From an uncultured bacterium (GTDB lineage: Bacteria > Patescibacteriota > Minisyncoccia > Phycocordibacterales > Phycocordibacteraceae): 64,000 bases of DNA. Under the pieces are notes generated by a model. That model was given only the letters and a program-made list of their open reading frames with translations, had not been told where the DNA came from and did not search any database. Positions within the stretch are counted from its first letter, which is position 1; each line of letters opens with the position of its first letter. A program made the position numbers and the translations under genes. The DNA is taken from assembly GCA_947085985.1 (NCBI GenBank), contig CAMTYL010000003.1, forward strand, positions 234,108-298,107, given 5' to 3'. Of the stretch, positions 4,298 through 61,558 are shown one piece after another.

Positions 4298-7039
4298 TTA
4301 TGATAAATATCGCTCCCTGATTATACCTTCAACGGTAGCACGGTCTCGCCCGTAGGTCAGGAACGACAACTGCCTAAGGTCGTCTACCTGGTCTGGGTTC
4401 CCTGGCTGCAGTGGCACGGTCTTCATATTGAACGGCTTCTGCGGTACGCCATTTGCAAGCATGCGCACATACGCGTTACGGTTTTCAATATTCACAAAGT
4501 CATGTGCAGTAAATACTGGCGCAAATTGCTTGGCAAAAAACTCGGCATCTTCCTCGCCCACACGGAATACCGCCATATTACCCACGTTGCCAAACACCGC
4601 ACCGCGAATCTTCTCGTCCACCTGCGCGAGGTACTGGTGGGCAATCGTAAGCGAGAGCTTGTATTTACGGGCTTCAGAGAGAATGCCTGGAATGGAGGAC
4701 GTGGTGATGTTCTGGAACTCATCAATGTAGAGGTAGAAAGGAGGGAAGTTCTTCCCCACAGAATCAGCACGCGAAAGCGCCGCCATGAAGAGTTTGCCCA
4801 CAATGATAAGCCCGAGCAGGTTTGCGTTGCGCTCTCCCAGGCGACCCTTGGATAGGTTCACCAGTAGAATCTTCTTGTTATCAATGACCTCGCGGAACTT
4901 AAACGAAGATTCCTGCTGCCCAATGATTGGGCGCATAAAGTCGTTTGACGTGAACTCATCAATTTTGTTGGTGATGTAGGGCACCAAATTTTGCAGTGAT
5001 GCTTCGCCCTCTGTTTTAGTCGCAATCTCATTCCAGAACTGGTTAACCACTGCGTTGTTGCTACGAGAGAGCTTTAGATTTCTGAAGGCGGCATTAGACA
5101 TAACGCGTCCAATATCCATGAGCGTAGAACCTGAGGAAGGGTCCTCCATCACAAGCTGCGTCGCGTTTGTGAAATACTGCACAAACATTGGCCCCATAGA
5201 CTCGGGCACGTCTCCATAGAGTTGCTGGAATATAGCCAACATCTCGTTCACAATGAACGACTTTTGCTCAGGGCGTGCTGGATCATACTCCAACATGTTG
5301 AGTCCAAATGGTCGGTCAAGACTCGCTGGGTCAAAATAAATGACGTCCTCGTATCGCTCCGGAGGAATGCTTTCAAGTACTTCTATGACGTCGTTGCCGT
5401 GCGGGTCTATAAAACACACGCCGTTGCCTGCACGGATGTCCTGGTCAATAAGGGTGCGGAGCATTCCCGACTTACCTGCACCCGTCTGCCCGATGACATA
5501 GAGGTGGCGAAGCCGGTCTTCTGGAGAAATGCGTATTTCTGTTTCCACCCCCCTGTACGTATTGGTTCCCAGAATAGTACCTTCACTTGGTAGTCCTAGT
5601 GGAGGAGGAGCCACGGCTGCACGCGACTGCTTCAAGTGTGGAGACGACTCTATACCCTGTGGAGGGAAGTGGTAGAGGGTAGTGAGTTCACGAAGTGACA
5701 GCGGTACGTTGCTTGCCTTTTCATACAGACGGAAGGAAAAGTCGCGGAAGAATCGCTTCAGCCCGCTTTTGCCAGGACGCTTAAACTCAATACGGTTGCC
5801 CTTAGTATTCTCAAACTGATTGAAGGGTGCCTCTATTTCAGATAGCATTTGTTCCGCACGGTGCGCGTCCATGGACGAGGTCACGATGCGTATGTTTGTA
5901 GAAACAATCGGAGCAGCCATTTTCTTCTCCATCTGCTCAATAGCAGTTTCGTCCACAGGACGCTGTTCGGCATTGGTCTGTTTTGGGACAAACAGTCCTA
6001 CGGTCTCGCGCGCGAGGTCTCCGACAAACGTTTCAGGTAAACTAAATGCGCGTGCTCGATGCTCGCCCTTGCGGAGCTGATACAAAATACGACGATAGTG
6101 TTCCATGTATTTCTGGCCAGAGGGCTTAAATACAATCTGGAGTGACGCCCCTTCATCTTCGGGCGCAATTTTGGCAAACGCGTTTAAAAGCGCATTGATT
6201 GGGTCGGCATCAAAATCCTGGTAATCCTTTAGCGGAAGCATCGGCTTATCTTTTAGTTCAGCCACTGACCCAACAGCAGAACCTCCATCTACAAATACGT
6301 TGTAGTCGTTTGGCTGAACGACCGCGATGGCATCTGGGAAAATTGCGTGGAGCTGCTTCTCAAACAGGTCACGTCGTGAATTTGGAATAGCAGCATAAAA
6401 CATAAGGTGCGTGCGGTCCACGGGCACGGCCAACTCAAGGGTCATGTAGGACAACTCCCCCGCGTGGGCACTCTCTAGTCCGAGCATGCCTGAATAAAAC
6501 TGCTCCATACTAGAAACAAGCTCGCGCAGTGGGCGCATACGACCGCTTCCATCGTCTCCCTTGTGCTCTGGAAGGGATATTTCATACAGCGTCATGTGGA
6601 GCGCCTTCCATTCCGGCTGACTCTCACTAATCCCTCGCAGAGGCATGCCAGCAAGAAGGTACTGCACCAGGAAGCGGTGGAAGTCGTCGTCTAAGTGAGG
6701 GCTTCCTACTTTATCTAGAACAGCCATCGCGTTTCGCACACCCTTCGTTTCCATAATGCCCCGCAACTCTTCAATGCTGGAGTCGGTGCTTGCTGGGTCT
6801 AAGTTTAGTGAGAGCTTTCGTGCAGCATTCTCAGCGTCTGCAACCGGCATGGCGTAGCTGGGGTGAAATGCCTCATCAGGGGTTGCTATGCGGTGGTGCA
6901 CAATACGTTCCCGTGCGATTTCCGTCCGCGGTTTTTCTACTCGCAGCGTTGCGAGCTCCTGCTCTTTTACGGCAATTTGTGCACGCAGATACGCGAGCTC
7001 CTCCTCGGGAGAGGTTAATGGCTGTACAGGCCCTTCCAT
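4298..7039 (-). CDS. P-loop NTPase of the VirB4 / VirD4(TraG,TraD) / HerA-FtsK superfamily, likely type-IV-secretion-associated ATPase (913 aa)
   Basis: Walker A VIGQTGAGKSGML. CFIDPHGNDVIEVL (DPxG motif as in T4CP/HerA). Walker B-like LYIDEFQNI. Downstream ARKYKLSLTIAHQ (Arg-finger/Q motif pattern of TraD/HerA-type ATPases). About 450-aa N-terminal extension of unknown function. Confidence 0.55.
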   Translation of the reverse strand: MEGPVQPLTSPEEELAYLRAQIAVKEQELATLRVEKPRTEIARERIVHHRIATPDEAFHPSYAMPVADAENAARKLSLNLDPASTDSSIEELRGIMETKGVRNAMAVLDKVGSPHLDDDFHRFLVQYLLAGMPLRGISESQPEWKALHMTLYEISLPEHKGDDGSGRMRPLRELVSSMEQFYSGMLGLESAHAGELSYMTLELAVPVDRTHLMFYAAIPNSRRDLFEKQLHAIFPDAIAVVQPNDYNVFVDGGSAVGSVAELKDKPMLPLKDYQDFDADPINALLNAFAKIAPEDEGASLQIVFKPSGQKYMEHYRRILYQLRKGEHRARAFSLPETFVGDLARETVGLFVPKQTNAEQRPVDETAIEQMEKKMAAPIVSTNIRIVTSSMDAHRAEQMLSEIEAPFNQFENTKGNRIEFKRPGKSGLKRFFRDFSFRLYEKASNVPLSLRELTTLYHFPPQGIESSPHLKQSRAAVAPPPLGLPSEGTILGTNTYRGVETEIRISPEDRLRHLYVIGQTGAGKSGMLRTLIDQDIRAGNGVCFIDPHGNDVIEVLESIPPERYEDVIYFDPASLDRPFGLNMLEYDPARPEQKSFIVNEMLAIFQQLYGDVPESMGPMFVQYFTNATQLVMEDPSSGSTLMDIGRVMSNAAFRNLKLSRSNNAVVNQFWNEIATKTEGEASLQNLVPYITNKIDEFTSNDFMRPIIGQQESSFKFREVIDNKKILLVNLSKGRLGERNANLLGLIIVGKLFMAALSRADSVGKNFPPFYLYIDEFQNITTSSIPGILSEARKYKLSLTIAHQYLAQVDEKIRGAVFGNVGNMAVFRVGEEDAEFFAKQFAPVFTAHDFVNIENRNAYVRMLANGVPQKPFNMKTVPLQPGNPDQVDDLRQLSFLTYGRDRATVEGIIRERYLS

Positions 7040-39358: not shown

Positions 39359-39463
39359 GTATGCATTCTATCACTACGTACCCGCATCACACAGAAGGAG
39401 CGGTGGTGAAAAAAGAACCCGATAGTGGTATGGTTACCCCTAGTGAAGAAGACATTCACTGAT

Positions 39464-39550
39464 GCCGCGGTGATGAAATTGGTAGACATAGGGGTCTCAA
39501 AATCCCCTGCTGGCAACGGCGTGCGGGTTCGAGTCCCGCCTGCGGCACCC
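39464..39550 (+). tRNA. tRNA-Leu (anticodon CAA), long variable arm
   Basis: GCCGCGG-TG-ATGAAATTGGTAGACAT-AGGGGT-CTCAAAA-TCCCC-TGCTGGCAACGGCGT-GCGGG-TTCGAGT-CCCGC-CTGCGGC-A-CC. Confidence 0.8.
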
Positions 39551-40129
39551 ATAGACACTGCTCTCGCACCAGTACTCGCCTACATAGTCGGTGTTGCCTT
39601 AGGAGACGGGAATCTATCCTGCCCAAACGGCAGAGCCACGCGACTTCGCATAACTTGCGATACTAGATATCCAGAAGTAGCTGATGAGATTATCAAGAGT
39701 CTTAACCAGCTTTTCCCACATAACAAGGTTTCCAGGGTTAAGCCTCGAGGAGGTTGTTTTGATATCAGCGTTTACTCAAACAAACTGAATGACTGGATCC
39801 CATGGCGTGTTGGGCATGGCTCCAAAATTGTTCAGTGCGTAACTGTACCCGAGTGGATACTTTTGAATGAAGAGTATTCAAAGCATTGTCTTCGTGGACT
39901 AATTCAGACAGACGGATGCGTGTATGTAGATAGGGGCTACAGAATGGTGAATTTTACGAACAATTCAAAAGAGCTGGCGCAAAGTGTTCATGAGCTGCTA
40001 ACGCAATTGAAGTACCGCCCTCGCCTCATCTGTGTCAGTAACGGGGGCTTTAGAAAGTACACGACACGAGTGGCCAGGAAAGTTGAGGTTGAGCGGCTTA
40101 TACAAGATACAGGACTCTACAAATCGTAA
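39551..40129 (+). CDS. LAGLIDADG homing endonuclease (two motifs). Reading frame is open through the upstream tRNA-Leu(CAA) back to GTG 39425; no canonical start between tRNA end and motif 1
   Basis: Motif 1 LAYIVGVALGDGNL. Motif 2 LRGLIQTDGCVYV. In-frame codons from 39551 (ATA GAC ACT...) lack ATG/GTG/TTG until after motif 1. Confidence 0.6.
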   Translation: MDTALAPVLAYIVGVALGDGNLSCPNGRATRLRITCDTRYPEVADEIIKSLNQLFPHNKVSRVKPRGGCFDISVYSNKLNDWIPWRVGHGSKIVQCVTVPEWILLNEEYSKHCLRGLIQTDGCVYVDRGYRMVNFTNNSKELAQSVHELLTQLKYRPRLICVSNGGFRKYTTRVARKVEVERLIQDTGLYKS

Positions 40130-41264: not shown

Positions 41265-42152
41265 ATGCGTTTTCCGTTATGTGAAGGTCATGATAGCATC
41301 CCAAGTATTGTGAAGCACCTGGATAACGCTCTCCCGCTACTGTGCGTTGTGGGGCCCACTGCCTCGGGCAAATCTGCGCGCGCGGTAGCGCTCGCAAAAG
41401 AGCTGGACGGTGAGGTCATTTCCGTAGATTCTCGCCAGGTGTATCGGATGCTTGATATCGGCACCGAGAAGACAACCGTGGAAGAAATGGACGGCATTAC
41501 TCACCACCTCATAGATATTCTTGACCCGCGGGAATCCTACAGCGCGGCTGACTTCGTGCGCGACGCAGAGCGCCTGATCGTTGACATTGAAGCGCGTGGC
41601 AAGCGCCCCATACTAGCAGGAGGCACGCACTTCTATTTTGAAGCGCTCATATACGGACTGCCAGAAACGAGTGCCCCCGACCCCACTGCAAGGCTCGCAC
41701 TTGAAGCACTCCCGACAGAGGAACTTGTGTCTCGTCTTAAACACAGCGACCCGCGACGAGCGGAGCGCGTTGACCCTCAGAATCGCCGTCGCCTTATCCG
41801 TGCGCTTGAAATAGTGGCCGAGCATGGTCACGTGCCAGAGCGCAACACCGAGACGCCACTGCGAGACGTAGAGTGGGTAGTTATTAACCCCGAGCGCGAC
41901 GTACTGCGCGAGCGTATCACCAGCCGTCTTGAGTCAGCATTTGCTCGCGGACTCATAGAAGAGGTGCGCGGCGTCCGAGACTATGTGGGCGACACTCGTT
42001 TGAACGAACTAGGGCTTGAATATCGCGTCATCGGCGAGTTTCTGCGTGGCGAACGCGAGGAAGATACGCTTCTATCTACCCTCTCAACAAAGCTCTGGCA
42101 CTACGCGCGCCATCAAAAGGCATGGCTGCGCAAACTAGCTGCCACCACTTAG
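41265..42152 (+). CDS. miaA: tRNA dimethylallyltransferase
   Basis: P-loop VVGPTASGKS. DSRQVYRMLDIGTEK. THFYFEAL. Longest ORF from 41214 would overlap the divergent peroxiredoxin start; ATG at 41265 used. Confidence 0.8.
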   Translation: MRFPLCEGHDSIPSIVKHLDNALPLLCVVGPTASGKSARAVALAKELDGEVISVDSRQVYRMLDIGTEKTTVEEMDGITHHLIDILDPRESYSAADFVRDAERLIVDIEARGKRPILAGGTHFYFEALIYGLPETSAPDPTARLALEALPTEELVSRLKHSDPRRAERVDPQNRRRLIRALEIVAEHGHVPERNTETPLRDVEWVVINPERDVLRERITSRLESAFARGLIEEVRGVRDYVGDTRLNELGLEYRVIGEFLRGEREEDTLLSTLSTKLWHYARHQKAWLRKLAATT

Positions 42153-43126
42153 CGACCTGTTGGAGACCAGTGCAATGGATCGGTTGGTAGCGCATTTCTG
42201 AAGCCCCACTTACTACCATTCGCCTTAAGCCAGTTGTAAGTTTTGGTATTACATCCAGACTGGCCATTCTTACACCCAACGGATATATCTATGGCGACTC
42301 CGGAATTGTGATTGGAACCGTTACCTCCCTTTGAACAAGGAATCGCAGCCTTTCCTGACCCAAGTCTGCTCCAAATCGCCACCTGCTGTGCTTCGGAACG
42401 ATACGCGCTAGTGACTTTCAATGTCACTCCTTCCTTGCGCGCAGCTTCGTGCATTGCCATAAAGTTCTTTACGGTGGCTGGTGTCGCTTTTCGTGCCTCA
42501 CCACCGGTGACTGACGTTGGAAATGCCACCATGCTTGACTCGGGCGCGGCCGGACAGTTCTTTCCACCGACGGCTGGATTTACGGGAGTATCATTATCCC
42601 AAGATTCGCTGAGCATAAGTTCACCGGCGGTGATTTTTCCGGAAAACAGAGAGTCCATGTTGTCAGTCTTTCGCACACACGCAGAACCACTGCCCAAAAT
42701 GCTGTTCCATGGACCCCAACTCGCATCACTCGGGTTGTACAGCGTCTTCATGACAAAGTCCACAATCAGCCATGCGGATAGCGTGATGAGTAGGCCAATA
42801 GCAGCATTGCCGAGCATCTTTCTCGCTGTGCTCTTTGCTTCAGGATTCACTGCGGATGTGATGAGAAGGAACCCTGCCCACGCCATAATTATGACAAAAA
42901 AGAGCACGCCAAGCGCAATGGCAACGCCAAGCAAATTTTGTACGACATGCATCATTGCACCAAAGGAAAGCGGGTCCCCTTTGTTACAAGTTGGATCCAA
43001 GTCGCTTGCGTCCGGAATGATGTGGAATCCGCTCCCAAGAGTCGGTATTCCTTGTGCTTGAGCAAACACCGGAGCAATCAGTCCTACAAGAAGCGTGAGC
43101 GTGAGAATTGGAATGAATAGTTTCAT
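42149..43126 (-). CDS. fusion protein: signal peptide + pilin-like two-helix membrane module + C-terminal M15/VanY-type D-Ala-D-Ala carboxypeptidase domain
   Basis: N-module GAMMHVVQNLLGVAIALGVLFFVIIMAWAGFLLITSAVNPEAKSTARKMLGNAAIGLLITLSAWLIVDFVMKTLY. Peptidase motifs SAYRSEAQQ, HNSGVAIDI, WGFRN...DPLHWS. Longest ORF to 43186. Confidence 0.65.
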   Translation of the reverse strand: MKLFIPILTLTLLVGLIAPVFAQAQGIPTLGSGFHIIPDASDLDPTCNKGDPLSFGAMMHVVQNLLGVAIALGVLFFVIIMAWAGFLLITSAVNPEAKSTARKMLGNAAIGLLITLSAWLIVDFVMKTLYNPSDASWGPWNSILGSGSACVRKTDNMDSLFSGKITAGELMLSESWDNDTPVNPAVGGKNCPAAPESSMVAFPTSVTGGEARKATPATVKNFMAMHEAARKEGVTLKVTSAYRSEAQQVAIWSRLGSGKAAIPCSKGGNGSNHNSGVAIDISVGCKNGQSGCNTKTYNWLKANGSKWGFRNALPTDPLHWSPTGR

Positions 43127-43130
43127 ATAA

Positions 43131-43661
43131 CTATGGCAAAGGCTCTGCACCAGGACAGAAGCTGAGACCAAGGTCGTAGCCCCCATAGGTGTCGGAAAGT
43201 CCCGGCGTAGTACGTACCGATACTGCCAGCTTACAAAGCTCTGGTTCAGTCATTTCTAGTTTTGCCTTCATGGCAGCTTCTGCGCGACGACGCACTTCAC
43301 CCAGTGGCTCTGACTGTATGTTTACCAAAAATTCGCCCAGACCCGCGGCAGCGTCTGGAGGGAAGTACAGAATAATGTACGCATCTTCGTCAGAGCCCGC
43401 AAAAAGATACCCGGAGGCTACCCCAGCCCAATCTGGCTGATTCTCCTTTGTAAAATCCCGAGCCTGCACGGTAGAGCCGTCACGCAGTGAGAGTGTGAGT
43501 GTCTTTGATGCTACTGAGGCAGTGCCACCCGTAAACCCAAACGGGCTTGTGGTTGGCTCACTCGGTATTGGCTTGCCTTGTGAGAGAAATAAGAACAGAC
43601 CTGCACCAATTATTGCGACTACTACTAGCACCCCCGCGCAAGCAATCAAGACGTACTTCAT
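43131..43661 (-). CDS. hypothetical membrane-anchored protein (176 aa)
   Basis: N-terminal TM YVLIACAGVLVVVAIIGAGLFLFL, then a Thr/Ser-rich extracytoplasmic domain. Confidence 0.45.
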   Translation of the reverse strand: MKYVLIACAGVLVVVAIIGAGLFLFLSQGKPIPSEPTTSPFGFTGGTASVASKTLTLSLRDGSTVQARDFTKENQPDWAGVASGYLFAGSDEDAYIILYFPPDAAAGLGEFLVNIQSEPLGEVRRRAEAAMKAKLEMTEPELCKLAVSVRTTPGLSDTYGGYDLGLSFCPGAEPLP

Positions 43662-43683
43662 AGAAAAATAGTATCACGCATAC

Positions 43684-44751
43684 TTACTTACCTGCTTCAC
43701 AACCTTTTACATTGCGGATCGGCGTAACCTGACAGCGACTTGCCGAACATGCCCAGTCACTAAAATCCATATTCTTGTCCATTGCACAAGCAGCTGCCGT
43801 GCTTACGGCTGGATCCTTTGCGGCCTCGACACATGCACTGTATAGGGCCTTTGCCTCACTCGTATTCTTTATTTCAGAATTACACCAGCCTGGATGGTTG
43901 GCCTGGTCAGTGTAGTTTCCCTTCATACACGGCCGCGTAAAGGCATCTGGGCACTTCAGTGTCTTGCCGTCCTTCTTAAGCTCATGCACCGTAAGGTTTA
44001 TCTGCCACAAACCAACCGAATACGATGGACCTTTTCCATTATTCAACTTGTCGCTCCCGCTTACAACACGAGTGTTACCGCCAGCGCTTTCCATATTGCA
44101 TATAATTGCCGCGTCTGAAGCTCGCTTAGCAAAGCATGTCTTTTGCATACTAGTCACGCTGCACGGATTACTTTGCGTGACGGGCGGTTGACACTTCGGG
44201 CCAGCGGAAATGCCACTGGTTCCCGAAGAGCCACCTTCATAGGAGGATGTGGTGAGCTGGCCCGCAGTGATTGGCGCATCAAAAAGAGCTTTCATATTCG
44301 TCGTCTTTTGCACGCAGGTATCTCCACCCGTCAAAATTGAGTTCCAAGGGCCGAACTTTCCCTGTTGACCGTCAGGTCCGCTATACAAGGCCTTCATCAC
44401 AAAATCAACAATGAGCCACGCAGAGCACACAATCAGAAATCCAATCACCGCATTGATGAGCATCTTGCGCGCCGTACTCTTTGCCTCAGGATTAAACGGA
44501 GACATGATGAGAATGAATCCTGCCCACGCCATAATCACCACTGCAAAGAGTATGCCCACTGAGATGCCCGCGTTTATGAGGTTCTGGGCTATGCCCATTA
44601 CCCCCTCAAACCCGCACGGACAAGAGCGGCAGGCCTCTGGCACCAAGCTCCACCCGGAAGAGAAGAGTGGCATGTCCTGCGCACGGGATACAAGCGGGAC
44701 AGCAAGCAGCATTGCTGCCGAAATAATTGGAGTCGCCCGGACTAACTTCAT
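43684..44751 (-). CDS. fusion protein: signal peptide + pilin-like two-helix membrane module (paralog of 42149-43126 N-module) + VirB1/Slt-like lytic transglycosylase domain, Cys-rich
   Basis: N-module MGIAQNLINAGISVGILFAVVIMAWAGFILIMSPFNPEAKSTARKMLINAVIGFLIVCSAWLIVDFVMKALY. ESAGGNTRVV...YSVGLWQIN (catalytic E-S and GLxQIN motif of GH23/VirB1-type transglycosylases). Confidence 0.55.
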   Translation of the reverse strand: MKLVRATPIISAAMLLAVPLVSRAQDMPLFSSGWSLVPEACRSCPCGFEGVMGIAQNLINAGISVGILFAVVIMAWAGFILIMSPFNPEAKSTARKMLINAVIGFLIVCSAWLIVDFVMKALYSGPDGQQGKFGPWNSILTGGDTCVQKTTNMKALFDAPITAGQLTTSSYEGGSSGTSGISAGPKCQPPVTQSNPCSVTSMQKTCFAKRASDAAIICNMESAGGNTRVVSGSDKLNNGKGPSYSVGLWQINLTVHELKKDGKTLKCPDAFTRPCMKGNYTDQANHPGWCNSEIKNTSEAKALYSACVEAAKDPAVSTAAACAMDKNMDFSDWACSASRCQVTPIRNVKGCEAGK

Positions 44752-44833
44752 GTAAGCATTGTAGCCTGCAAATCGGGCGCGTGGCTGCGCTTTTCCCCGC
44801 CCCGGTTCTCTGGTATCGTGAGTCTGTCACCAC

Positions 44834-44907
44834 GGGTCCATAGTTTAGTGGTAGAACATCGGTCTCCAAAACCGATAGTGTAGGTTCGATTCCTACTGGG
44901 CCCGCCA
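44834..44907 (+). tRNA. tRNA-Trp (anticodon CCA)
   Basis: GGGTCCA-TA-GTTTAGTGGTAGAACA-TCGGT-CTCCAAA-ACCGA-TAGTG-TAGGT-TCGATTC-CTAC-TGGGCCC-G-CCA. Confidence 0.85.
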
Positions 44908-44912
44908 AGAAG

Positions 44913-44934
44913 AACCCCGAAAGGGGTTTTCTTC
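44913..44934 (+). terminator. rho-independent terminator after tRNA-Trp
   Basis: AACCCC-gaaa-GGGGTT followed by TTCTTC. Confidence 0.55.
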
Positions 44935-44968
44935 GTGGCGGGCCCAAGCAAACGTGGGACGTTTGCGC

Positions 44969-45304
44969 GTAGGAATCGAAGATGTTGCGAGCATATTTCG
45001 TAAGCGAAGCGGACTGAAATATCCGCAACGTGTACAGAAACTGTAAGTTTCGAAAGCGAAGCGTTTCCTACTGGACTTAGGAATCGAAGCGCGGAGCCGT
45101 GACGACGGCGAGCGGGGGTCGCGGAATTTTGCAGCAGGAAAATATCTGTGACCGATGCGTGAGCAAATTCTCTTACGAGCACAGCGAGTTTAGAGATATA
45201 AGGAGCTGCGCGACTATATATCTATTATTTGTCTATTTAGAGAATGCGAACTTCCTACTGGTCTTAGATCCCGGGCGAAAGTGGTACTCCACGGTTCCTA
45301 CTGA
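44969..45304. repeat. cluster of tRNA-Trp-derived fragments: inverted T-arm copies GTAGGAATCGAAG (44969-44981, 45076-45087) and direct 3'-end copies TTCCTACTGG/A (45063-45072, 45252-45261, 45295-45304)
   Basis: Exact 10-13-nt matches to the tRNA-Trp T-loop/acceptor TTCGATTCCTACTGG, in both orientations, within a 400-bp noncoding trailer. Confidence 0.7.
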
Positions 45305-45309
45305 GCCCC

Positions 45310-46224
45310 TTATCCGTACTTCTTAAGAAAATCTGCTACTTTAATGTAGCCAAGTTTCACTTGATGTGGTGCAACCCCAGTCTCCAAAAAATCGGCATAC
45401 TCTTTCTCCTTTACATTACCCTTCTGATCAATAAACTGCCCCCAGAACATGAGGCCAGACGGGTATGCATCAGAGTCATCTGCGACGGAGAAGCCGACAC
45501 GCCTTGCTATCGGTGTGTCCATAAGCCAGGAGCGTCCAATAATATATTTTGCATTCGGGCTGTTCTCCTTAATAGACGTTGCGAGCTCGCGAAAGGAATC
45601 CTGAGAGAAAATATTTACAGCTGAAATTTCATCATTTTCAACTTGCTCTGCAAGCGGAGTAACATGAATCTCAACAACTTCGTCCTCTGCAGATATCTGT
45701 GGGAAGTCAGGAAAGAGCTTCCCGTTAAATACTGCGTAGCCTATTAATCCCGCATGAAAAGGACCTCTTCTATCTTGTGGCGGCATCTCCTCTGGTACCC
45801 TATCCTCAACTACCTTTTCTCCAATCTCTGCTGCAGAAAAACTTTCTCCCACTTTTGAAACGATACTCGGTAAACGAGGAATGAATGATGTATCCTCGGG
45901 CGCGTAGCTGGCATCAACAGCATCAAGTACACACTGAGTAAATGATTGGTATGTATCTGGTAGCTGCCAGGAGTGCTTTCTCGTATTCGTATAGAAAGCG
46001 TCAGAGATAAGGGGCTGGAGAATGTAACAGTCGTGAAGGTATGAACTTAGTCGCTCCCCCTTTGGAATAGTTTCTGTGCTCGGTGTTTTACCTTCCCATA
46101 CGCGTACCCGGTACTGAGTCTCAAGCGAATCAAGCTTTGCGTATACCGACTCCTTAGTTTCAGCGGGGCTTGTTTCTGCTATAGCAGGTCGTGGCTTTTG
46201 TTCAGCAATACCTTCGTATCCCAT
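45310..46224 (-). CDS. hypothetical protein (start ATG 46224; longest ORF from GTG 46269)
   Basis: Intact 300+ aa ORF. No recognised motif. Confidence 0.4.
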   Translation of the reverse strand: MGYEGIAEQKPRPAIAETSPAETKESVYAKLDSLETQYRVRVWEGKTPSTETIPKGERLSSYLHDCYILQPLISDAFYTNTRKHSWQLPDTYQSFTQCVLDAVDASYAPEDTSFIPRLPSIVSKVGESFSAAEIGEKVVEDRVPEEMPPQDRRGPFHAGLIGYAVFNGKLFPDFPQISAEDEVVEIHVTPLAEQVENDEISAVNIFSQDSFRELATSIKENSPNAKYIIGRSWLMDTPIARRVGFSVADDSDAYPSGLMFWGQFIDQKGNVKEKEYADFLETGVAPHQVKLGYIKVADFLKKYG

Positions 46225-46251
46225 GACGAAACTGTAGCATAGTGAAAACCC

Positions 46252-46280
46252 TTGACACCGAAAAGCCACTTTGATAGATT
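46252..46280 (+). promoter_or_regulatory. sigma-70-like promoter TTGACA-N17-TAGATT driving candidate sRNA 1
   Basis: TTGACA 46252-46257. TAGATT 46275-46280. Confidence 0.45.
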
Positions 46281-56447: not shown

Positions 56448-57542
56448 TTAGTTACTTTCCGAAGAGTAGTCCGCCACCTGAATGAGCTCTCTGCCGTACT
56501 CCTCAACAAGTTCACGAATTTCTGCCACTTCTGTATCAGTCCCTATCAGATCTTCGGACACACTCGCCGTACCGAGCGTTACGCCGATGAGGTTGCCCGT
56601 AATGGCACCCGTGCTGTCACTGTCCCCGTCGTGATTTACCGCAAGACGCAGCGCATCTGCAACGGACAGTGTTCCGTTTGCACATTGCAGTGCGCAGTAC
56701 AATGAAATCGCGAGTGCTTCCTCCGCTATCCATCCCTGCCCAAGAGCCTGGAGACTCTCTGTGCTTGGCTGGTGTTGCGCACCTTCTAGTGCTCGCTCGT
56801 ATAGCTCCTGTACGTCCGGAGCGGGGAAATACTTAAGCGCGGTTTCAACCGCTTCTCCGAGACTTTCACCATGGAGCACAAGTGCAATGACGACTGCAAG
56901 CAGGCCACTTGCATGATGAGCTATGGGGTTGCCATGAGTAATGGCAGCGTCACTTGCTCCCTGCTCGTACACTTTTTGTAAGTCTGTGCGAGTTGTGCCC
57001 TTAACTACGTTCCCGAAGAAAAGTCCTATAGGAGCTGCGCGCATCACTGCTCCACAACTTTTACTATCATTTGCAGCTGGCTCTGGAGGCAGCGGCATAT
57101 TCTTAAGCGCACTTAGGCACGTCAAACCAGGTGCGCGTGGACCCTGAGCGTATATCACTTCATGCAAATGTTTGCTTCCCCATTCTCTGTTTATGTATCT
57201 AGGGTTTTCTTCGCGTTGTGTCGTAAGCCACTGCAAATAGCTTTCGGCAGTATACGTCCAGTAGGGCGCGAGGATTCCTTTATCCAAGCCACGCTTGTGC
57301 GCGTGGATTAGTCCGTCGGCTGCAAATAGTGCCATCTGCGTGTCATCCGTCACTGCGCCCTTCTTGCCGTAGCAAACGTCCGGGTACTGAATACCAGAGA
57401 CCTTTTGTTCTACTCCACCGTACTTTTCTAGAATCGCGTCGAGCTTCATGAACTCTACAGCAGAGCCAAGTGCGTCTCCTGTTGCCCCAAGCAACAAGCA
57501 GGCCTGCGCCTTGTCTATTCTTGTAGCTTTGTCTGTCGTCAT
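56448..57542 (-). CDS. ADP-ribosylglycohydrolase family protein (DraG/ARH-like)
   Basis: LLGATGDALGSAVEF (metal-binding GDALG motif). C-terminal D..D.TGAI (NHDGDSDSTGAITG). Confidence 0.75.
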   Translation of the reverse strand: MTTDKATRIDKAQACLLLGATGDALGSAVEFMKLDAILEKYGGVEQKVSGIQYPDVCYGKKGAVTDDTQMALFAADGLIHAHKRGLDKGILAPYWTYTAESYLQWLTTQREENPRYINREWGSKHLHEVIYAQGPRAPGLTCLSALKNMPLPPEPAANDSKSCGAVMRAAPIGLFFGNVVKGTTRTDLQKVYEQGASDAAITHGNPIAHHASGLLAVVIALVLHGESLGEAVETALKYFPAPDVQELYERALEGAQHQPSTESLQALGQGWIAEEALAISLYCALQCANGTLSVADALRLAVNHDGDSDSTGAITGNLIGVTLGTASVSEDLIGTDTEVAEIRELVEEYGRELIQVADYSSESN

Positions 57543-57743
57543 ACAGTGGGTGAGATTATGAATATGGTCCCAGTATACCGTTTAACACCTAGGAGTAATG
57601 CTCTTGCGCAACTTTGGATAGAGCAAAGCAAACTTGACTTTTGTCTATTTTGTGTGTTATACTGTGTGTTGAGTCTAGTTCCTCGAAAACTCAAGGTAAC
57701 TAGCATCCACAAACGGCCTGCGGGCCATACTTGGAGACGTACC

Positions 57744-58931: not shown

Positions 58932-59581
58932 GTTTGCTCATAAACATTCTTGTTCCGCTTGTCTGCGTCACCATCATCATCGCACTCATCATGCGCGCTG
59001 GTTGGTGGCAAAGGGCGACGAAACGGGAAGAGGAGGGCGCCAACCAAGCCCCTCCTCAAGCAACACCGACTCCAGCAGCTGCACCCGCAGCTGCTGGCCA
59101 CGGTGGCGGTCACGACAGTCACAGCGATCATGGCCCCCCGCCATGGTCTTCGCAAGTGATTGCTGTTCTGGTTGTGCTCTTCGTCCTCGGCGGCATCTCC
59201 GCCGGAGTTGTCTGGTTTGTTAACCGAGACGAACCAGCAAAGGAGACTCGCACCCGGCAGAAAGAATCGCGGGCTTCGGCGGACGCACAACGTGCTCCGT
59301 CTTCGGGCGAAGCAAGCAAGTGCTCAACAGAGCAGGGGGACGTCGAGGAAATCGTCGTCCCCACCGAAGGCCTCTACGGTCCCATCAGGGTCCCAAGGGG
59401 TCATACGGCCTGCTATGGTCCCGGCGACATCTACCAGAAGCTTCGTTTCAAGCGAGGGTACGGGGACACCCCGCCCAACACCTGGAACGAGGGCTACGGC
59501 AGCCGGCAGTGGGTGGCAATCATTCCGGGGGAATCCTCGGAGCCACTCACGGTTCGCGTTTGGACCGAGCCGCTTCGCTAG
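58928..59581 (+). CDS. membrane protein translationally coupled to the SPFH gene (NfeD-like partner?)
   Basis: ATGA overlap. Two TM helices flanking a Pro/Ala/His-rich loop. C-terminal beta-rich soluble domain. Confidence 0.4.
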   Translation: MSLLINILVPLVCVTIIIALIMRAGWWQRATKREEEGANQAPPQATPTPAAAPAAAGHGGGHDSHSDHGPPPWSSQVIAVLVVLFVLGGISAGVVWFVNRDEPAKETRTRQKESRASADAQRAPSSGEASKCSTEQGDVEEIVVPTEGLYGPIRVPRGHTACYGPGDIYQKLRFKRGYGDTPPNTWNEGYGSRQWVAIIPGESSEPLTVRVWTEPLR

Positions 59582-59616: not shown

Positions 59617-59657
59617 GCCGCCCAACCCCTAACCGGGAAGGGCGGCTTTGTTTTACC
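59617..59657 (+). terminator. rho-independent terminator
   Basis: GCCGCCC...GGGCGGC stem followed by TTTGTTTT. Confidence 0.5.
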
Positions 59658-59895
59658 CACCGACGATGTTGCGCAGGAGCGCAATGATGGCGTTAGCACC
59701 GAAAATAATCACCAGGCCGATGATTCCCCACAGCATGTGCTGTTGACCCTTCTTGCGCTTCTCCTCGTCCTCAGAGCCTCCAATAAAGAGAACGACTCCC
59801 CAGACAAAAATGACAAAAGCAGCAAGAGAGAGAAGGGTGATGATTGGTATCAAAATGGCGCTCTCCACCTTCGCGAGAAATTGTTCGTAGTTCAT
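59653..59895 (-). CDS. T4SS-pilin-like (TrbC/VirB2-type) small two-helix membrane protein, paralog 1 of 5
   Basis: helix1 - GGSEDEEKRKKGQQHMLWG - helix2 architecture. Confidence 0.5.
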   Translation of the reverse strand: MNYEQFLAKVESAILIPIITLLSLAAFVIFVWGVVLFIGGSEDEEKRKKGQQHMLWGIIGLVIIFGANAIIALLRNIVGG

Positions 59896-59964
59896 TACTT
59901 ACTATCATAGCAAACGGCCACGCCTGAAGCGTGGCCGTCCACAGAAGAAACCGAAAGCTGGTCT

Positions 59965-60333
59965 TTAGCGAGGACCGCCTGTAGTAGGGGCTACTGGGTA
60001 GCTAGGCACGTTGTTCTGCAGGCCTACTGACCCGGTAAGAATACGTACGAGTCCCCATACTGATACCATCACGAAGAAGCCGATAAGGCCCCAGAGCATG
60101 AGTGCACGACCCTTCTCCTTTGCCTCCTCGTTAGTTCCGCCGAGGATGAACACCTGGAACACGCCCCAGATAAATACGATAAACGCGAGTGCAAATACTA
60201 CCGGTACCGCAACGTTGTTGATGAGACCGATAATAAACTCACCTGCACCCTGCACACTTGTGACGGTTCCCGTCTGCGCGAATGCGATGAGTGGGAAAAC
60301 GAGCACGGCACCAATAAGACCAAGTTTCTTCAT
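59965..60333 (-). CDS. T4SS-pilin-like protein, paralog 2 (with signal peptide)
   Basis: Signal peptide, then VPVVFALAFIVFIWGVFQVFILGGTNEEAKEKGRALMLWGLIGFFVMVSVWGL. Confidence 0.5.
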   Translation of the reverse strand: MKKLGLIGAVLVFPLIAFAQTGTVTSVQGAGEFIIGLINNVAVPVVFALAFIVFIWGVFQVFILGGTNEEAKEKGRALMLWGLIGFFVMVSVWGLVRILTGSVGLQNNVPSYPVAPTTGGPR

Positions 60334-60416
60334 AGAGGATAATTAGCTAGATACCCTTATAGGATAGTCTAGTGGTGGGTAACGTCAATAGAATAAGCAG
60401 CCTGGTGTGGAAAACA

Positions 60417-60845
60417 CTAGCGATTACACTTCGACGGGTCTTTGTCAAAACACGGCAAGTTTGGGCGCGTGTTGTTGTCGGTAGGAATAAGTGACTTAGC
60501 AAGATTCACCAGTCCCCAAATGGAGAGCATCACCACAAAGCCAATGAGTGCCCATAGTACAAACTTAGCTCCCTCCTTTCTCTTTTCCTCGTTATTAGCT
60601 CCAAGAATAAAAGCCTGGAACACGCCCCAGAGAAACACTATGAATGCGAGCGCAAACACGAATGGCACTACCACCGTATTAAGCACTCCAATAAATGAGT
60701 CACTCAAGTTCTGAATCGCACTCGTATTTAGCGCCCCGGGCTGTGGGGCCGGGGCTGGATTCTGTTGCGCTACGGCAACTGAGGCAGAGAGCAACAGCAG
60801 CGAGAGTAAGGCAACGTGTCCCAGTCGGAAAAAGAAAGTCTTCAT
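60417..60845 (-). CDS. T4SS-pilin-like protein, paralog 3 (with signal peptide)
   Basis: VVPFVFALAFIVFLWGVFQAFILGANNEEKRKEGAKFVLWALIGFVVMLSIWGL. Confidence 0.5.
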   Translation of the reverse strand: MKTFFFRLGHVALLSLLLLSASVAVAQQNPAPAPQPGALNTSAIQNLSDSFIGVLNTVVVPFVFALAFIVFLWGVFQAFILGANNEEKRKEGAKFVLWALIGFVVMLSIWGLVNLAKSLIPTDNNTRPNLPCFDKDPSKCNR

Positions 60846-60894
60846 ATATCTATAAGCGTACCAGACTACCCTACTCTACTTCGCGGTTATCCCA

Positions 60895-61134
60895 CTAGCT
60901 AGGGAGTATACCCAGAAACAGTCTGACGATGCTCCACACAGAGAACAGTACGACAAATCCAATAATTCCCCAGAGCATAAAGACGCGCCCCTTCTGCCGC
61001 TGCTCTTCGCCGCCCATAAAAAAGAACCGCACCATCCCAATGAGGAAGAAAATAAAGGCCAGCGCGTACAGAAGCGGTATAACCGCTCCATCTACCAGGC
61101 GCGCAATACTGTTTACGAGGTCTGCGAACGTCAT
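60895..61134 (-). CDS. T4SS-pilin-like protein, paralog 4
   Basis: IPLLYALAFIFFLIGMVRFFFMGGEEQRQKGRVFMLWGIIGFVVLFSVWSI. Confidence 0.5.
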   Translation of the reverse strand: MTFADLVNSIARLVDGAVIPLLYALAFIFFLIGMVRFFFMGGEEQRQKGRVFMLWGIIGFVVLFSVWSIVRLFLGILPS

Positions 61135-61135
61135 A

Positions 61136-61558
61136 CTAGCCGAGTGAATCTACTGTTGAGCGAATCACCATACCAATGGTTTGAGCACCCAAAAGCACCA
61201 GTCCTCCTATCACCGTCCACATAAGGGCGCTTCTGGCTGACCGAAGCTCTTCTTCATTTCCCTGGGCTTTTACAAACAGAAAGCCCACATACACAATGGC
61301 AAGGGTCAAAACAATGGTTCCGAGCGTTATTACTGCCTCAAGAATTTTTTCCAGGAATTCAGGGAGTGAATCAATCCCATCGAGCGGATTGGTGAGTCCT
61401 CCGCTGTAGCCACCAGGATTATCACCACCAGAGCCTCCCGCAGGATTGCCTCCTCCAGAGCCTCCTGCCGGCGTCTGCGCCAATGCGAAGGAGGCAAAGG
61501 AGCCATTGATTGCCACAAACGTCAGTGCGATGAATAAGAGTCTAAAGAAGCGATTCAT
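61136..61558 (-). CDS. T4SS-pilin-like protein, paralog 5 (signal peptide, Gly-rich insert)
   Basis: Signal peptide, GGSGGGNPAGGSGG repeats, then LGTIVLTLAIVYVGFLFVKAQGNEEELRSARSALMWTVIGGLVLL. Confidence 0.45.
   Translation of the reverse strand: MNRFFRLLFIALTFVAINGSFASFALAQTPAGGSGGGNPAGGSGGDNPGGYSGGLTNPLDGIDSLPEFLEKILEAVITLGTIVLTLAIVYVGFLFVKAQGNEEELRSARSALMWTVIGGLVLLGAQTIGMVIRSTVDSLG

What the first reader, a model, noticed from the sequence alone, without database searches (positions are those of the whole stretch)
42149..44751. Two adjacent paralogs: a shared T4SS-pilin-like membrane module fused to different peptidoglycan hydrolases (M15 DD-peptidase and VirB1-like lytic transglycosylase)
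About 70 residues after the signal peptide are near-identical between the two proteins (…IMAWAGF(L/I)LI…NPEAKSTARKML…SAWLIVDFVMK(T/A)LY). They have the same helix-charged loop-helix layout as the five small pilin-like genes at 59653-61558. The C-termini carry SxYRS/HxxGxAxD/WxF…PxHW (VanY/M15) and ES…GLWQIN (GH23/VirB1) motifs. Fusing a pilin-like anchor to murein-cutting enzymes suggests dedicated cell-wall remodelling for a surface or secretion apparatus, or attack on a host/partner cell wall.
Basis: partly seen in the sequence, partly recalled or inferred. Interest (0 to 1): 0.6.

Follow-up and report, generated by a model that had tools for sequence, protein, structure and literature searches.

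The report
Pilin-anchored cell-wall hydrolase operon
An ultra-small (Patescibacteria) bacterium carries a conserved three-gene operon in which a sugar-chain cutter and a peptide cutter of the cell wall are each built onto the membrane hairpin of a conjugation-type (VirB2) pilin, which gives a testable lead on how these bacteria get their unusual pili or secretion machine through a cell wall.

Summary
On the minus strand, 43684-44751 (355 aa) and 42149-43126 (325 aa; the listed ATG at 43186 is probably not the start) share an N-terminal module (51% identity over 175 aa, E 1e-52).

The module is a Sec signal peptide plus a VirB2-type pilin hairpin (PF18895). It is homologous to the five small pilins at 59653-61558 (hhalign 96%).

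One cargo is a firm M15B zinc peptidase: VanY scores 56.7 bits, the H-D-H ligands are invariant, and the predicted fold matches LdcB. The other is a divergent lysozyme-like domain (SLT_3) with invariant Glu-Ser and GLWQIN motifs. It scores below Pfam threshold and has no structural match.

The cassette [pilin-lysozyme]-[membrane protein]-[pilin-peptidase] is conserved at one housekeeping locus (ClpB…MiaA-Prx-ParB) across Paceibacteria-type genomes. Gene 3's cargo is swapped among at least seven families, including VanY and CHAP.

Most likely reading: a split, pilin-targeted equivalent of the bifunctional VirB1-type wall hydrolases of monoderm type IV secretion systems. It is never adjacent to a VirB4-like gene, so a housekeeping autolysin role remains a serious rival.

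Novelty: a new variant of a known kind, not described in the papers I could search.

The parts
43684..44751 (-). Gene 1: pilin-module + lysozyme-like (SLT_3) protein, 355 aa
   Evidence: ORF. Pfam T4SS_pilin 28.9 bits (threshold 26.6); SLT_3 17.3 bits (threshold 27). 290 homologues, several named 'pilin' by NCBI.
44680..44751 (-). Gene 1 signal peptide (aa 1-24, …VSRA|QD)
   Evidence: Hydrophobic segment at aa 3-21. Ala24 is nearly invariant in 40 orthologues. The cleavage site is inferred from the -3/-1 rule.
44383..44610 (-). Gene 1 VirB2-type hairpin (aa 48-123: helix, NPEAKSTARKML loop, helix)
   Evidence: AlphaFold helices 48-83 and 88-123. Hydrophobic segments 65-83 and 97-115. PF18895 match at aa 54-118. 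hhalign to the small pilins 96%.
44314..44382 (-). Gene 1 conserved juxtamembrane motif (YSGPDGQQGKFGPWNSILTGGDTC, ending at invariant Cys146)
   Evidence: G134, W136 and C146 are invariant in 40 orthologues. C146 is the only invariant column in 133 representatives.
44182..44313 (-). Gene 1 disordered Gly/Ser/Thr-rich linker (aa 147-190)
   Evidence: pLDDT below 50 over aa 128-183. This region has the lowest identity among orthologues, 0.36.
43687..44181 (-). Gene 1 lysozyme-like catalytic domain (aa 191-355). Putative catalytic Glu221-Ser222 at nt 44086-44091; GLWQIN at aa 247-252.
   Evidence: pLDDT about 87-98. E221, S245, G247, L248, Q250 and N252 are invariant; S222 and I251 are nearly invariant. 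SLT_3 hits in 25/25 family members, best E 2.6e-7. hhalign puts ES…GLMQ in register with Slt70 and MltE.
43131..43661 (-). Gene 2: conserved single-pass membrane protein, 176 aa, unknown function
   Evidence: No Pfam, NCBIfam or PHROG hit below E 0.05. One N-terminal hydrophobic segment. 21 homologues. Homologues occupy the same position in L001, L003-L006 and occur in about 62 of 74 species loci. Invariant C143 and C169.
42149..43126 (-). Gene 3: pilin-module + M15B (VanY/LdcB-like) zinc peptidase, 325 aa (mechanical ORF extends to 43186)
   Evidence: ORF. VanY 56.7 bits (threshold 25) and T4SS_pilin 23.9 bits. 212 homologues. Start supported by the orthologue alignment.
42737..42964 (-). Gene 3 VirB2-type hairpin (aa 55-130)
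   Evidence: AlphaFold helices 55-90 and 95-130. Hydrophobic segments 65-83 and 108-126.
42152..42559 (-). Gene 3 M15B peptidase domain (aa 190-325). Key residues: Arg243 (nt 42398-42400), His273 (42308-42310), Asp280 (42287-42289), Asp316, His319 (42170-42172).
   Evidence: R243, H273, D280 and H319 are invariant and D316 nearly invariant in 40 orthologues. PDB profile hits to LdcB/YodJ at 1e-8, VanY and Ply500. Foldseek to LdcB 4jid at E 2e-6, probability 1.0. PHROG endolysin families at 2e-9.
59653..61558 (-). Array of five small VirB2-type pilin paralogs (80, 122, 142, 79 and 140 aa): the free-standing form of the shared module
   Evidence: All pass PF18895. Alignment A5. hhalign with the N-module 96%, E 2e-9.
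4298..7039 (-). VirB4/VirD4-like ATPase (913 aa): candidate motor of the T4SS-like system, 35 kb from the cassette
   Evidence: Pfam DUF87 31 bits and TraG-D_C 24.8 bits, both above threshold. Weak NCBIfam hits to TraD/VirD4/VirB4 models, all far below their cut-offs. The assignment is tentative.

Best explanation
Genes 44751→42149 (minus strand) form a three-gene operon for a cell-wall-cutting module on the outer face of the cytoplasmic membrane of a Patescibacteria (Paceibacteria-type, monoderm) bacterium.

Shown:
- Genes 1 and 3 each encode the same layout: a signal peptide, a VirB2/TrbC-type pilin hairpin, a conserved juxtamembrane motif with an invariant cysteine, a disordered linker of about 40 residues, and an enzyme domain.
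- Gene 1's enzyme is a lysozyme-like (SLT_3, GH23-like) domain with an invariant Glu-Ser…GLWQIN signature.
- Gene 3's enzyme is a zinc M15B peptidase with a complete His-Asp-His site.
- Gene 2 is a conserved single-pass membrane protein.
- Cassette order and chromosomal slot are conserved across many species.
- The pilin module is about as conserved as the enzymes.
- Gene 3's cargo is exchanged among several hydrolase families.

Inferred:
- After Sec export and signal-peptide cleavage, the hairpin leaves both termini outside and the basic loop inside. The enzymes therefore hang in the wall compartment on flexible tethers.
- The pilin module is more than an anchor. It brings the enzymes to the site where the genome's free VirB2-like pilins are handled by the T4SS-like machine.
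- There, a glycan cutter and a peptide cutter together open a local gap in the peptidoglycan. Other monoderm T4SSs do this with one bifunctional VirB1-type hydrolase (PrgK, TraG of pIP501, CwlT).
- Gene 2 probably restrains or scaffolds the lysozyme-like enzyme.
For: Architecture and topology:
- Three hydrophobic segments in each enzyme protein (signal peptide plus two transmembrane helices).
- AlphaFold predicts helix-loop-helix, a disordered linker, then a confident C-terminal domain.
- The loop NPEAKSTARKML is basic.

Pilin identity:
- PF18895 matches.
- hhalign against the window's five small pilins: 96%, E 2e-9.
- Reciprocal HMM hits.

Enzymes:
- Peptidase: VanY 56.7 bits, invariant R243/H273/D280/H319, LdcB/VanY/Ply500 by profile and by fold.
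- Lysozyme-like: invariant E221, GLWQIN and near-invariant S222, SLT_3 in 25/25 members, ES…GLMQ aligned in register with Slt70/MltE and with canonical SLT domains.
- A relative with a canonical SLT domain (58 bits) on the same pilin module sits in the same chromosomal slot.

The anchor is under strong constraint:
- All-pairs identity is 0.57 for the N-module against 0.43 for the enzyme in gene 1, and 0.51 against 0.60 in gene 3.

Cassette conservation:
-.
- About 47 of 74 species loci show gene1|mid|pilin-gene3.

Other cargos on this module are also wall hydrolases:
- VanY 8, CHAP 5, SLT_3 5, SLT 4 among 133 representatives.
- SLT plus CHAP-type peptidase is the domain pair of monoderm VirB1-type enzymes (PMC12102498).

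Literature fit:
- This genome has a pilin array and a VirB4/VirD4-like ATPase.
Against: - The cassette is never next to T4SS genes. No VirB4-like ORF lies within ±4 kb in 74 loci. In the window it is 15 kb from the pilin array and 35 kb from the ATPase.
- Its neighbours are housekeeping genes: ClpB, MiaA, peroxiredoxin, ParB.
- The ATPase is only weakly typed.
- PMC12102498 reports that classical VirB1 homologues are associated with VirB4 specifically in Paceibacteria. A dedicated T4SS hydrolase may therefore already exist in this lineage.
- The nearest solved relatives of the peptidase, LdcB and VanY, are carboxypeptidases that trim stem peptides rather than open cross-links.
- The lysozyme-like assignment lacks fold confirmation.
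- No expression or interaction data exist.
Confidence: 0.45

Rival explanations
1. Housekeeping autolysins. The pair trims and cleaves the organism's own peptidoglycan during growth, division or recycling. The pilin-derived hairpin has simply been recruited as a stable two-helix membrane anchor, with no link to a pilus or T4SS.
For: - The chromosomal position among core genes is fixed and syntenic over species down to about 40% protein identity.
- No T4SS gene lies nearby.
- LdcB-type enzymes are normal wall-maturation carboxypeptidases.
- A linker of about 40 residues is the right length to reach the cell's own wall from the membrane (inference).
Against: - Passive anchors usually drift, yet this one is as conserved as the active domains and keeps the pilin loop signature and an invariant Cys.
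- Gene 3's cargo is replaced by at least seven unrelated families at the same slot, and is sometimes absent. That is unusual for an essential housekeeping activity acting on one constant wall chemistry.
Confidence: 0.27
2. Host-directed, pilus-borne enzymes. The fusion proteins are minor pilins that co-polymerise with the small VirB2-like pilins, so the enzymes are displayed on the pilus, or are released by cleavage at the conserved juxtamembrane motif. They then digest the wall of the partner or host cell. Gene 2 protects the producer, as an immunity- or inhibitor-like protein.
For: - In VirB2/TraA pilins both termini face outward, so a C-terminal cargo would lie on the pilus surface (established knowledge of F and T pili, from memory).
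- The glycan cutter is constant while the peptide cutter is highly variable. This matches targets whose glycan is universal but whose peptide chemistry differs between hosts.
- The gene following the lysozyme-like gene is a small exported membrane protein present in about 62 of 74 loci, which is the position of an immunity gene.
- Patescibacteria are largely epibionts whose T4SS and pilins are essential for growth on hosts (PMC10633639).
Against: - There is no evidence of polymerisation.
- A 150-aa globular cargo on every subunit is sterically incompatible with a VirB2 filament, so incorporation would have to be sparse.
- Gene 2 stays with gene 1, not with the variable gene 3, and nothing follows gene 3 except a convergent miaA. 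This is unlike polymorphic toxin-immunity pairs.
- Hosts of this lineage are unknown.
Confidence: 0.2
3. Catalytically irrelevant cargo. The proteins are specialised pilins whose C-terminal domains only bind peptidoglycan (adhesion or anchoring) rather than cut it.
For: - The lysozyme-like domain is very divergent: below Pfam threshold and with no structural match.
- Many cargo families have no recognisable catalytic family.
Against: - The catalytic Glu221 and all three zinc ligands plus Arg243 are invariant across 40 orthologues each. That is the pattern of active enzymes.
Confidence: 0.05

Closest known systems
Cell-wall hydrolases of monoderm (Gram-positive) type IV secretion systems: PrgK (pCF10), TraG (pIP501), CwlT (ICEBs1), TcpG (pCW3)
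   Same: - Membrane-tethered and extracytoplasmic.
- Combine a glycan-cleaving lysozyme/SLT activity with a peptide-cleaving activity.
- Found in bacteria with a single membrane and an exposed wall.
- CHAP and SLT cargos also occur on this pilin module.
   Different: - The two activities here are on two polypeptides, with a third conserved gene between them.
- The anchor is a VirB2-type pilin hairpin rather than a plain N-terminal transmembrane helix.
- The peptidase in this window is M15B rather than CHAP, NlpC/P60 or M23.
- The genes are not inside a T4SS cluster.
VirB2/TrbC/TraA conjugative pilins and the Patescibacteria 'T4SS_pilin' (PF18895) arrays (PMC12102498, PMC10633639)
   Same: - Signal peptide, two hydrophobic helices and a short basic loop.
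- Significant profile similarity to the genome's own small pilins.
   Different: - Carry a C-terminal linker plus enzyme of 200 or more residues.
- Have an extra conserved juxtamembrane motif (FGPWNSIL…C).
- Have cysteines flanking the hairpin that four of the five small pilins lack entirely and the fifth lacks at those positions.
- An HMM survey would score them as 'VirB2' and miss the enzyme.
M15B zinc peptidases: LdcB/YodJ, VanY, and the Ply500/T5-type L-Ala-D-Glu endolysins
   Same: - SxxR, SxHxxGxAxD and (E/D)xxH motifs.
- Same fold.
   Different: - Asp replaces the usual Glu before the last His in most orthologues; Glu is kept in a few.
- An extra Cys-rich insert (GCxNGxSxCN).
- Specificity unknown.
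- Fused to a pilin module.
GH23 lytic transglycosylases / VirB1 / Pfam SLT_3 (PF18896)
   Same: - Glu-Ser catalytic motif at the end of a helix.
- A GL(M/W)Q(I)N motif about 25 residues later.
- A small helical domain with a β-hairpin.
   Different: - An insertion of 10-11 residues between the two motifs.
- Many conserved cysteines.
- Only about 37 columns align to canonical SLT (E 1e-3, probability 21%).
- No Foldseek match to any solved or viral lysozyme-like structure.

Membership tests
T4SS_pilin / VirB2-TrbC pilin superfamily (PF18895, PF04956) | Match to the family HMM at or above Pfam's gathering score | tested here: met
   Gene 1 scores 28.9 bits against a threshold of 26.6. Gene 3 scores 23.9 bits, just below, but most of its orthologues carry PF18895 in the precomputed annotation. 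All 133 representatives of the module match PF18895.
T4SS_pilin / VirB2-TrbC pilin superfamily (PF18895, PF04956) | Cleavable signal peptide followed by two hydrophobic helices joined by a short charged loop | tested here: met
   Hydropathy shows three segments in each protein. AlphaFold predicts a helix-loop-helix. The loop is NPEAKSTARKML. The cleavage site itself is inferred.
T4SS_pilin / VirB2-TrbC pilin superfamily (PF18895, PF04956) | Homology to free-standing pilins of the same genome | tested here: met
   hhalign of A6 against A5 gives probability 96%, E 2e-9. Reciprocal HMM hits range from 2.8e-8 to 3e-4.
T4SS_pilin / VirB2-TrbC pilin superfamily (PF18895, PF04956) | Polymerises into a pilus assembled by a VirB4-driven machine | not testable with these tools
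   Requires multimer modelling, microscopy or biochemistry.
Peptidase M15B (VanY/LdcB) | Match to the VanY HMM above threshold | tested here: met
   56.7 bits against a threshold of 25.
Peptidase M15B (VanY/LdcB) | Zinc ligands His-Asp-His, the substrate-binding Arg, and an acidic catalytic residue three positions before the last His | tested here: met
   R243, H273, D280 and H319 are invariant. D316 is nearly invariant, with Glu in a few orthologues.
Peptidase M15B (VanY/LdcB) | LAS/Hedgehog-type fold | tested here: met
   Foldseek to LdcB 4jid/4mph at E about 2e-6 and probability 1.0; also VanY, VanXY and Ply500.
   The nearest relatives include LD-carboxypeptidases, DD-carboxypeptidases and L-Ala-D-Glu endopeptidases.
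Lysozyme-like / GH23 (Pfam SLT_3 PF18896, SLT PF01464) | Match to a family HMM at or above its gathering score | tested here: inconclusive
   The window protein scores 17.3-19.4 bits on SLT_3 (threshold 27) and does not hit PF01464. All 25 aligned family members hit SLT_3 (best E 2.6e-7) and 5 hit SLT. Four homologues carry PF18896 in the precomputed annotation.
Lysozyme-like / GH23 (Pfam SLT_3 PF18896, SLT PF01464) | Catalytic Glu(-Ser) and GLMQ-type motif, conserved and in register with known enzymes | tested here: met
   E221, S245, G247, L248, Q250 and N252 are invariant; S222 and I251 are nearly invariant. hhalign places them on the ES…GLMQ of Slt70, MltE and canonical SLT domains (E 0.084, 0.015 and 0.0011).
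Lysozyme-like / GH23 (Pfam SLT_3 PF18896, SLT PF01464) | Lysozyme-like three-dimensional fold | tested here: not met
Lysozyme-like / GH23 (Pfam SLT_3 PF18896, SLT PF01464) | Lytic transglycosylase chemistry (1,6-anhydroMurNAc product) as opposed to hydrolysis | not testable with these tools
   Requires muropeptide analysis.
VirB1-type T4SS-associated wall hydrolase | Encoded within or next to the T4SS gene cluster | tested here: not met
   No VirB4-like ORF lies within ±4 kb in 74 loci. In the window the cassette is 35 kb from the ATPase and 15 kb from the pilin array.
VirB1-type T4SS-associated wall hydrolase | Membrane-tethered extracytoplasmic glycosidase plus peptidase | tested here: met
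   Domain and topology predictions; split over two genes.
Polymorphic effector with immunity protein | Constant N-terminal delivery module with interchangeable C-terminal domains | tested here: met
   At least 12 cargo clusters among 121 representatives. At least five of them were seen as gene 3 at the same locus.
Polymorphic effector with immunity protein | Cognate immunity gene immediately downstream of, and co-varying with, the variable domain | tested here: not met
   Gene 3 is followed by a convergent miaA. The conserved small gene follows the constant gene 1 instead.

The most novel reading that the evidence does not exclude
The fusion proteins are minor subunits of a VirB2-type pilus in a single-membrane bacterium. 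They display, or release, a glycan cutter and a host-matched, swappable peptide cutter on the filament: an enzymatically armed conjugative-type pilus that drills through the partner cell's wall. Gene 2 would act as the producer's inhibitor. This would give the enigmatic, essential Patescibacteria T4SS pilins a concrete mechanistic role in epibiosis.
Probability: 0.18. Interest if true: 0.85.

Novelty: new variant of a known kind. Interest (0 to 1): 0.58.

Why it matters
Patescibacteria make up a large share of bacterial diversity. [quoted passage not shown]

How a pilus crosses a Gram-positive-type wall is open. So is why most of these genomes lack a recognisable VirB1 (PMC12102498). A conserved operon that welds wall-cutting enzymes onto the pilin module offers a concrete candidate answer, with simple experiments to test it.

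It also shows that HMM surveys counting PF18895 hits as 'pilins' include enzyme fusions.

Finally, it reveals a fixed chromosomal slot where the peptide-cutting cargo is swapped among many families. That could report on wall chemistry, of the bacterium itself or of its host, in uncultured lineages.

Tried and rejected
1. Concerted evolution or gene conversion between the two N-modules in one genome. The shared NPEAKSTARKML loop suggested it. Rejected: within-genome identity (about 0.55) equals the cross-genome mean (about 0.55), and modules group by orthology.

2. Sequence link of the lysozyme-like domain to solved structures. A profile against PDB sequences gave only a designed repeat protein at E 0.16.

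4. PHROGs. No hit for gene 1, gene 2 or two SLT_3-positive homologues.

5. Identity of the two commonest alternative gene-3 cargos (X1, X2). No PDB sequence match. hhalign of X1 against the VanY family aligned only the shared N-module. Their conserved His/Asp/Cys patterns suggest metallopeptidases, but that rests on motifs only.

6. Promoter and terminator scan of 41900-45400. Promoter-like sites were close to shuffled expectation. Terminator-like sites were more numerous than in shuffles, but most lay inside the coding regions and none marked the operon's ends. Uninformative.

7. Literature. No mention of pilin-hydrolase fusions in the main text or held supplements of PMC12102498, the passages retrieved from PMC10633639, PMC12857230, or term searches. 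The Southlakia T4SS hydrolase SEML1_0006 is a conventional multidomain enzyme, not pilin-fused.

8. Organism name. The exact-sequence look-ups gave no name. Record titles of the closest species loci disagree.

Full report
**What is there**

On the minus strand the window holds three tightly packed genes:
- 43684-44751 (355 aa), called gene 1 here.
- 43131-43661 (176 aa), gene 2.
- 42149-43186 as a mechanical ORF, gene 3.

The spacers are 22 nt between genes 1 and 2, and 4 nt between gene 2 and the internal ATG of gene 3 at 43126. The upstream ATG at 43186 would overlap gene 2 by 56 nt. All 39 aligned orthologues begin at the MKLF… position, so I take gene 3 as 42149-43126 (325 aa). A convergent miaA ends 4 nt into gene 3's stop. 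tRNA-Trp lies just upstream of gene 1 on the other strand.

**Check of the observation**

Genes 1 and 3 share 89/175 identities (51%, E 1e-52) confined to their N-terminal halves. Identity is 51/76 over the hairpin and 41/51 over IMAWAGF…LY. That is strong, though not 'near-identical over 70 residues'. All quoted motifs are present.

**The shared module is a VirB2-type pilin hairpin**

- Pfam T4SS_pilin (PF18895) scores 28.9 bits for gene 1 (threshold 26.6) and 23.9 for gene 3. NCBIfam's Mbov_0395 pilin-like conjugal protein model gives 33 and 31 bits, below its cut-off of 40.
- The five small ORFs at 59653-61558 all pass PF18895.
- A profile of the N-module aligns to a profile of those five with 96% probability, E 2e-9. 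The alignment covers helix 1, the N(P/E)E…K/R loop and helix 2.
- Reciprocal HMM searches find exactly these seven ORFs in the window.
- Hydropathy shows a signal-peptide segment plus two membrane helices in each fusion protein.
- AlphaFold models give helix-loop-helix, then a region with pLDDT below 50 (30-55 residues), then a confident domain.
- With the signal peptide removed (…SRA|QD and …AQA|QG; Ala24 nearly invariant) and a basic loop, the inferred topology puts both termini and the enzymes outside the membrane.

The module extends beyond Pfam's hairpin. It has a juxtamembrane motif, LY…FGPWNSIL…C, whose cysteine is the only invariant column in 133 representatives. In 129 of 132 representatives there are also cysteines before helix 1, nearly always three or one. 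Totals are therefore even: 3+1 in gene 1 and 1+1 in gene 3. This suggests disulfide staples across the two outer ends of the hairpin (inference). Four of the five small pilins have no cysteine at all; the fifth has two.

**Gene 3 cargo: a bona fide M15B zinc peptidase**

- VanY scores 56.7 bits against a threshold of 25.
- In 40 orthologues Arg243, His273, Asp280 and His319 are invariant. Asp316 is nearly so, replaced by Glu in the canonical EPWH form in a few.
- A family profile hits LdcB/YodJ (1e-8), VanY-type enzymes and the Ply500 endolysin among solved structures.
- The model matches LdcB with probability 1.0.
- PHROG endolysin families match at 2e-9.
- Whether it removes terminal D-Ala (LD or DD) or cuts inside the stem peptide cannot be told from sequence.

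**Gene 1 cargo: lysozyme-like, but divergent**

- The window protein scores only 17-19 bits on SLT_3 (PF18896, threshold 27).
- All 25 aligned family members hit SLT_3 (best E 2.6e-7) and five hit canonical SLT.
- Glu221, Ser245-x-Gly-Leu-x-Gln-x-Asn252 and several cysteines are invariant, and Ser222 and Ile251 nearly so, in 40 orthologues.
- hhalign puts Glu-Ser and GLWQ on the catalytic ES…GLMQ of E. coli Slt70 and MltE, and of canonical SLT domains. The register is correct each time but the statistics are weak: E 0.084, 0.015 and 0.0011, over about 37 columns, with a 10-11 residue insertion.
- Independent positional support comes from P0271. It has the same pilin module fused to a canonical SLT domain (58 bits) and occupies the same slot after ClpB-L33.
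- My reading is 'works like a GH23-type glycan cleaver, probable member of SLT_3', not 'is a VirB1'.

**The cassette and its relatives**

- Homologues number 290 (gene 1) and 212 (gene 3). They come from Patescibacteria metagenomes; NCBI calls them 'pilin' or 'D-alanyl-D-alanine carboxypeptidase family protein'.
- Gene 2 has 21 detectable homologues, no known domain, one N-terminal membrane helix and two invariant cysteines.
- The order gene1-gene2-gene3 and the surroundings (IF-2, aminotransferase, ClpB | cassette | MiaA, peroxiredoxin, ParB, RelA/SpoT, TopA) are conserved. This holds down to about 40% protein identity.
- I examined 74 species-representative loci (Paceibacterota, Parcubacteria, Kaiserbacteria, Moraniibacteriota; some records labelled Saccharibacteria). 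About 47 have gene1 | gene2 | a second pilin-module gene, and gene 2 is present in about 62. VanY is the gene-3 cargo in 11. None has a VirB4-like ORF within 4 kb.

**Cargo swapping**

An exhaustive profile search with the N-module finds 25,943 cluster representatives at E ≤ 1e-3 (the whole pilin family). Of these, 61 reach E ≤ 1e-30. The best 150 are mostly 300-450 aa proteins of the form module plus cargo.

Among 133 of them, Pfam sees VanY (8), CHAP (5), SLT_3 (5), SLT (4) and DUF4329 (1). Most cargos are unrecognised. BLAST clustering gives at least 12 cargo families.

VanY, 'X2', a 14-member unnamed family and a CHAP/NlpC-like family all occur downstream of a gene 2 homologue; a further unnamed family, like VanY and X2, abuts the convergent miaA. 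In one lineage gene 3 is missing.

So the glycan-cutter gene and gene 2 are the constant core. The peptide-cutter position is a replacement hot spot.

**The anchor is not passive**

Across orthologues the N-module is as conserved as the enzymes: 0.57 against 0.43 for gene 1 and 0.51 against 0.60 for gene 3. The linker is the least conserved part. The two modules of one genome are no more alike than modules from different genomes, so an ancient duplication under purifying selection explains the similarity, not gene conversion.

**How it most likely works**

Shown: the architecture, homologies, catalytic residues, and conservation of cassette and locus.

Inferred: Sec export, outside-facing enzymes on flexible tethers, and an operon.

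My preferred mechanism (about 0.45) is as follows. The pilin module targets a glycan cutter and a peptide cutter to the place where the VirB2-like pilins are assembled. There they open the wall locally. This is the job done in other monoderm T4SSs by one bifunctional VirB1-type enzyme with SLT plus CHAP-type domains.

This fits the report that most Patescibacteria with VirB2 lack a detectable VirB1 and that other glycosidases may substitute (PMC12102498). Such surveys would have scored these fusions simply as VirB2.

The main weakness is the lack of any physical linkage to T4SS genes, together with the housekeeping neighbourhood. That keeps an autolysin role alive (about 0.27).

A more adventurous reading (about 0.2) is pilus display or release against a host wall, with gene 2 as inhibitor. 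The constant-glycan, variable-peptide pattern favours it. Sterics, and the position of gene 2 next to the constant gene rather than the variable one, weigh against it.

**Comparison with what is known, and novelty**

The closest systems are PrgK, TraG(pIP501) and CwlT (same task; different anchor and gene organisation), the Patescibacteria pilin arrays (same module, no cargo), LdcB/VanY/Ply500 (same catalytic fold) and GH23/SLT_3 (same catalytic motifs).

The Saccharibacteria T4SS hydrolase SEML1_0006 is a conventional multidomain enzyme without a pilin module.

I found no description of pilin-hydrolase fusions, of the three-gene cassette, or of the cargo-swap locus in the searchable literature. 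The domain combinations are implicit in database annotations.

I rate it a new variant of a known kind, of moderate to good interest.

Noticed in passing
window 4298-7039 (-) and 846-4286 (-): A 913-aa ATPase carries DUF87/HerA and TraG-D_C domains, with weak TraD/VirD4/VirB4 model hits. It is followed by a 1146-aa protein with no Pfam match and one hydrophobic segment. This may be the T4SS motor region of the genome, 35 kb from the cassette.
   Followed up: partly
database proteins P0248, P0256, P0260, P0306, P0346 etc.: Seventeen of the top 150 matches to the pilin-module profile contain 5-17 tandem copies of the hairpin in one polypeptide, up to 1775 aa. They are either 'poly-pilin' proteins or run-together gene calls of pilin arrays.
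   Followed up: no
window 39425-40129 (+), next to tRNA-Leu(CAA) at 39463-39551: A LAGLIDADG_3 homing-endonuclease-like ORF (40.9 bits) lies between peroxiredoxin and ParB, and its mechanical ORF overlaps a tRNA-Leu gene. A LAGLIDADG gene sits at the same position in locus L085.
   Followed up: partly
window 44314-44316 (Cys146 of gene 1) and 42677-42679 (Cys150 of gene 3), with Cys41/44/46 and Cys47 upstream of helix 1: Cysteines flank the pilin hairpin in the fusion proteins but not in the free small pilins. Upstream counts of 3 or 1, plus one invariant downstream Cys, give even totals. This suggests disulfide staples that might stand in for the head-to-tail cyclisation known for VirB2/TrbC.
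   Followed up: partly
loci L005, L084, L085, L087 and clusters: Several alternative gene-3 cargos have no Pfam or PDB sequence match but carry conserved His/Asp/Cys patterns, for example CHxNGTCVD…HFS(V)Y and SCHYGG…AVDFGD…NHxHVS. They look like unrecognised metallopeptidase or amidase families.
   Followed up: partly
window 56448-57542 (-), 57546-58931 (+), 58928-59581 (+): An ADP-ribosylglycohydrolase (207 bits), an SPFH/Band-7 protein and a proline/alanine-rich membrane protein lie immediately beside the five-pilin array. A Band-7 gene also lies near the cassette region in locus L003.
   Followed up: no
loci L010-L013 and others: The closest species-level relatives (56-79% identity) are labelled 'uncultured Candidatus Saccharibacteria' in their records. 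More distant ones with the same synteny are labelled Paceibacterota, Parcubacteria or Kaiserbacteria. The labels are probably inconsistent automated classifications.
   Followed up: no
window 45310-46269 (-): A 319-aa ORF sits directly upstream of the cassette, beyond tRNA-Trp. It has no Pfam match and no hydrophobic segment. A gene of matching length and position is called in the window's own strain (L009), whereas more distant genomes have other genes in that position.
   Followed up: no
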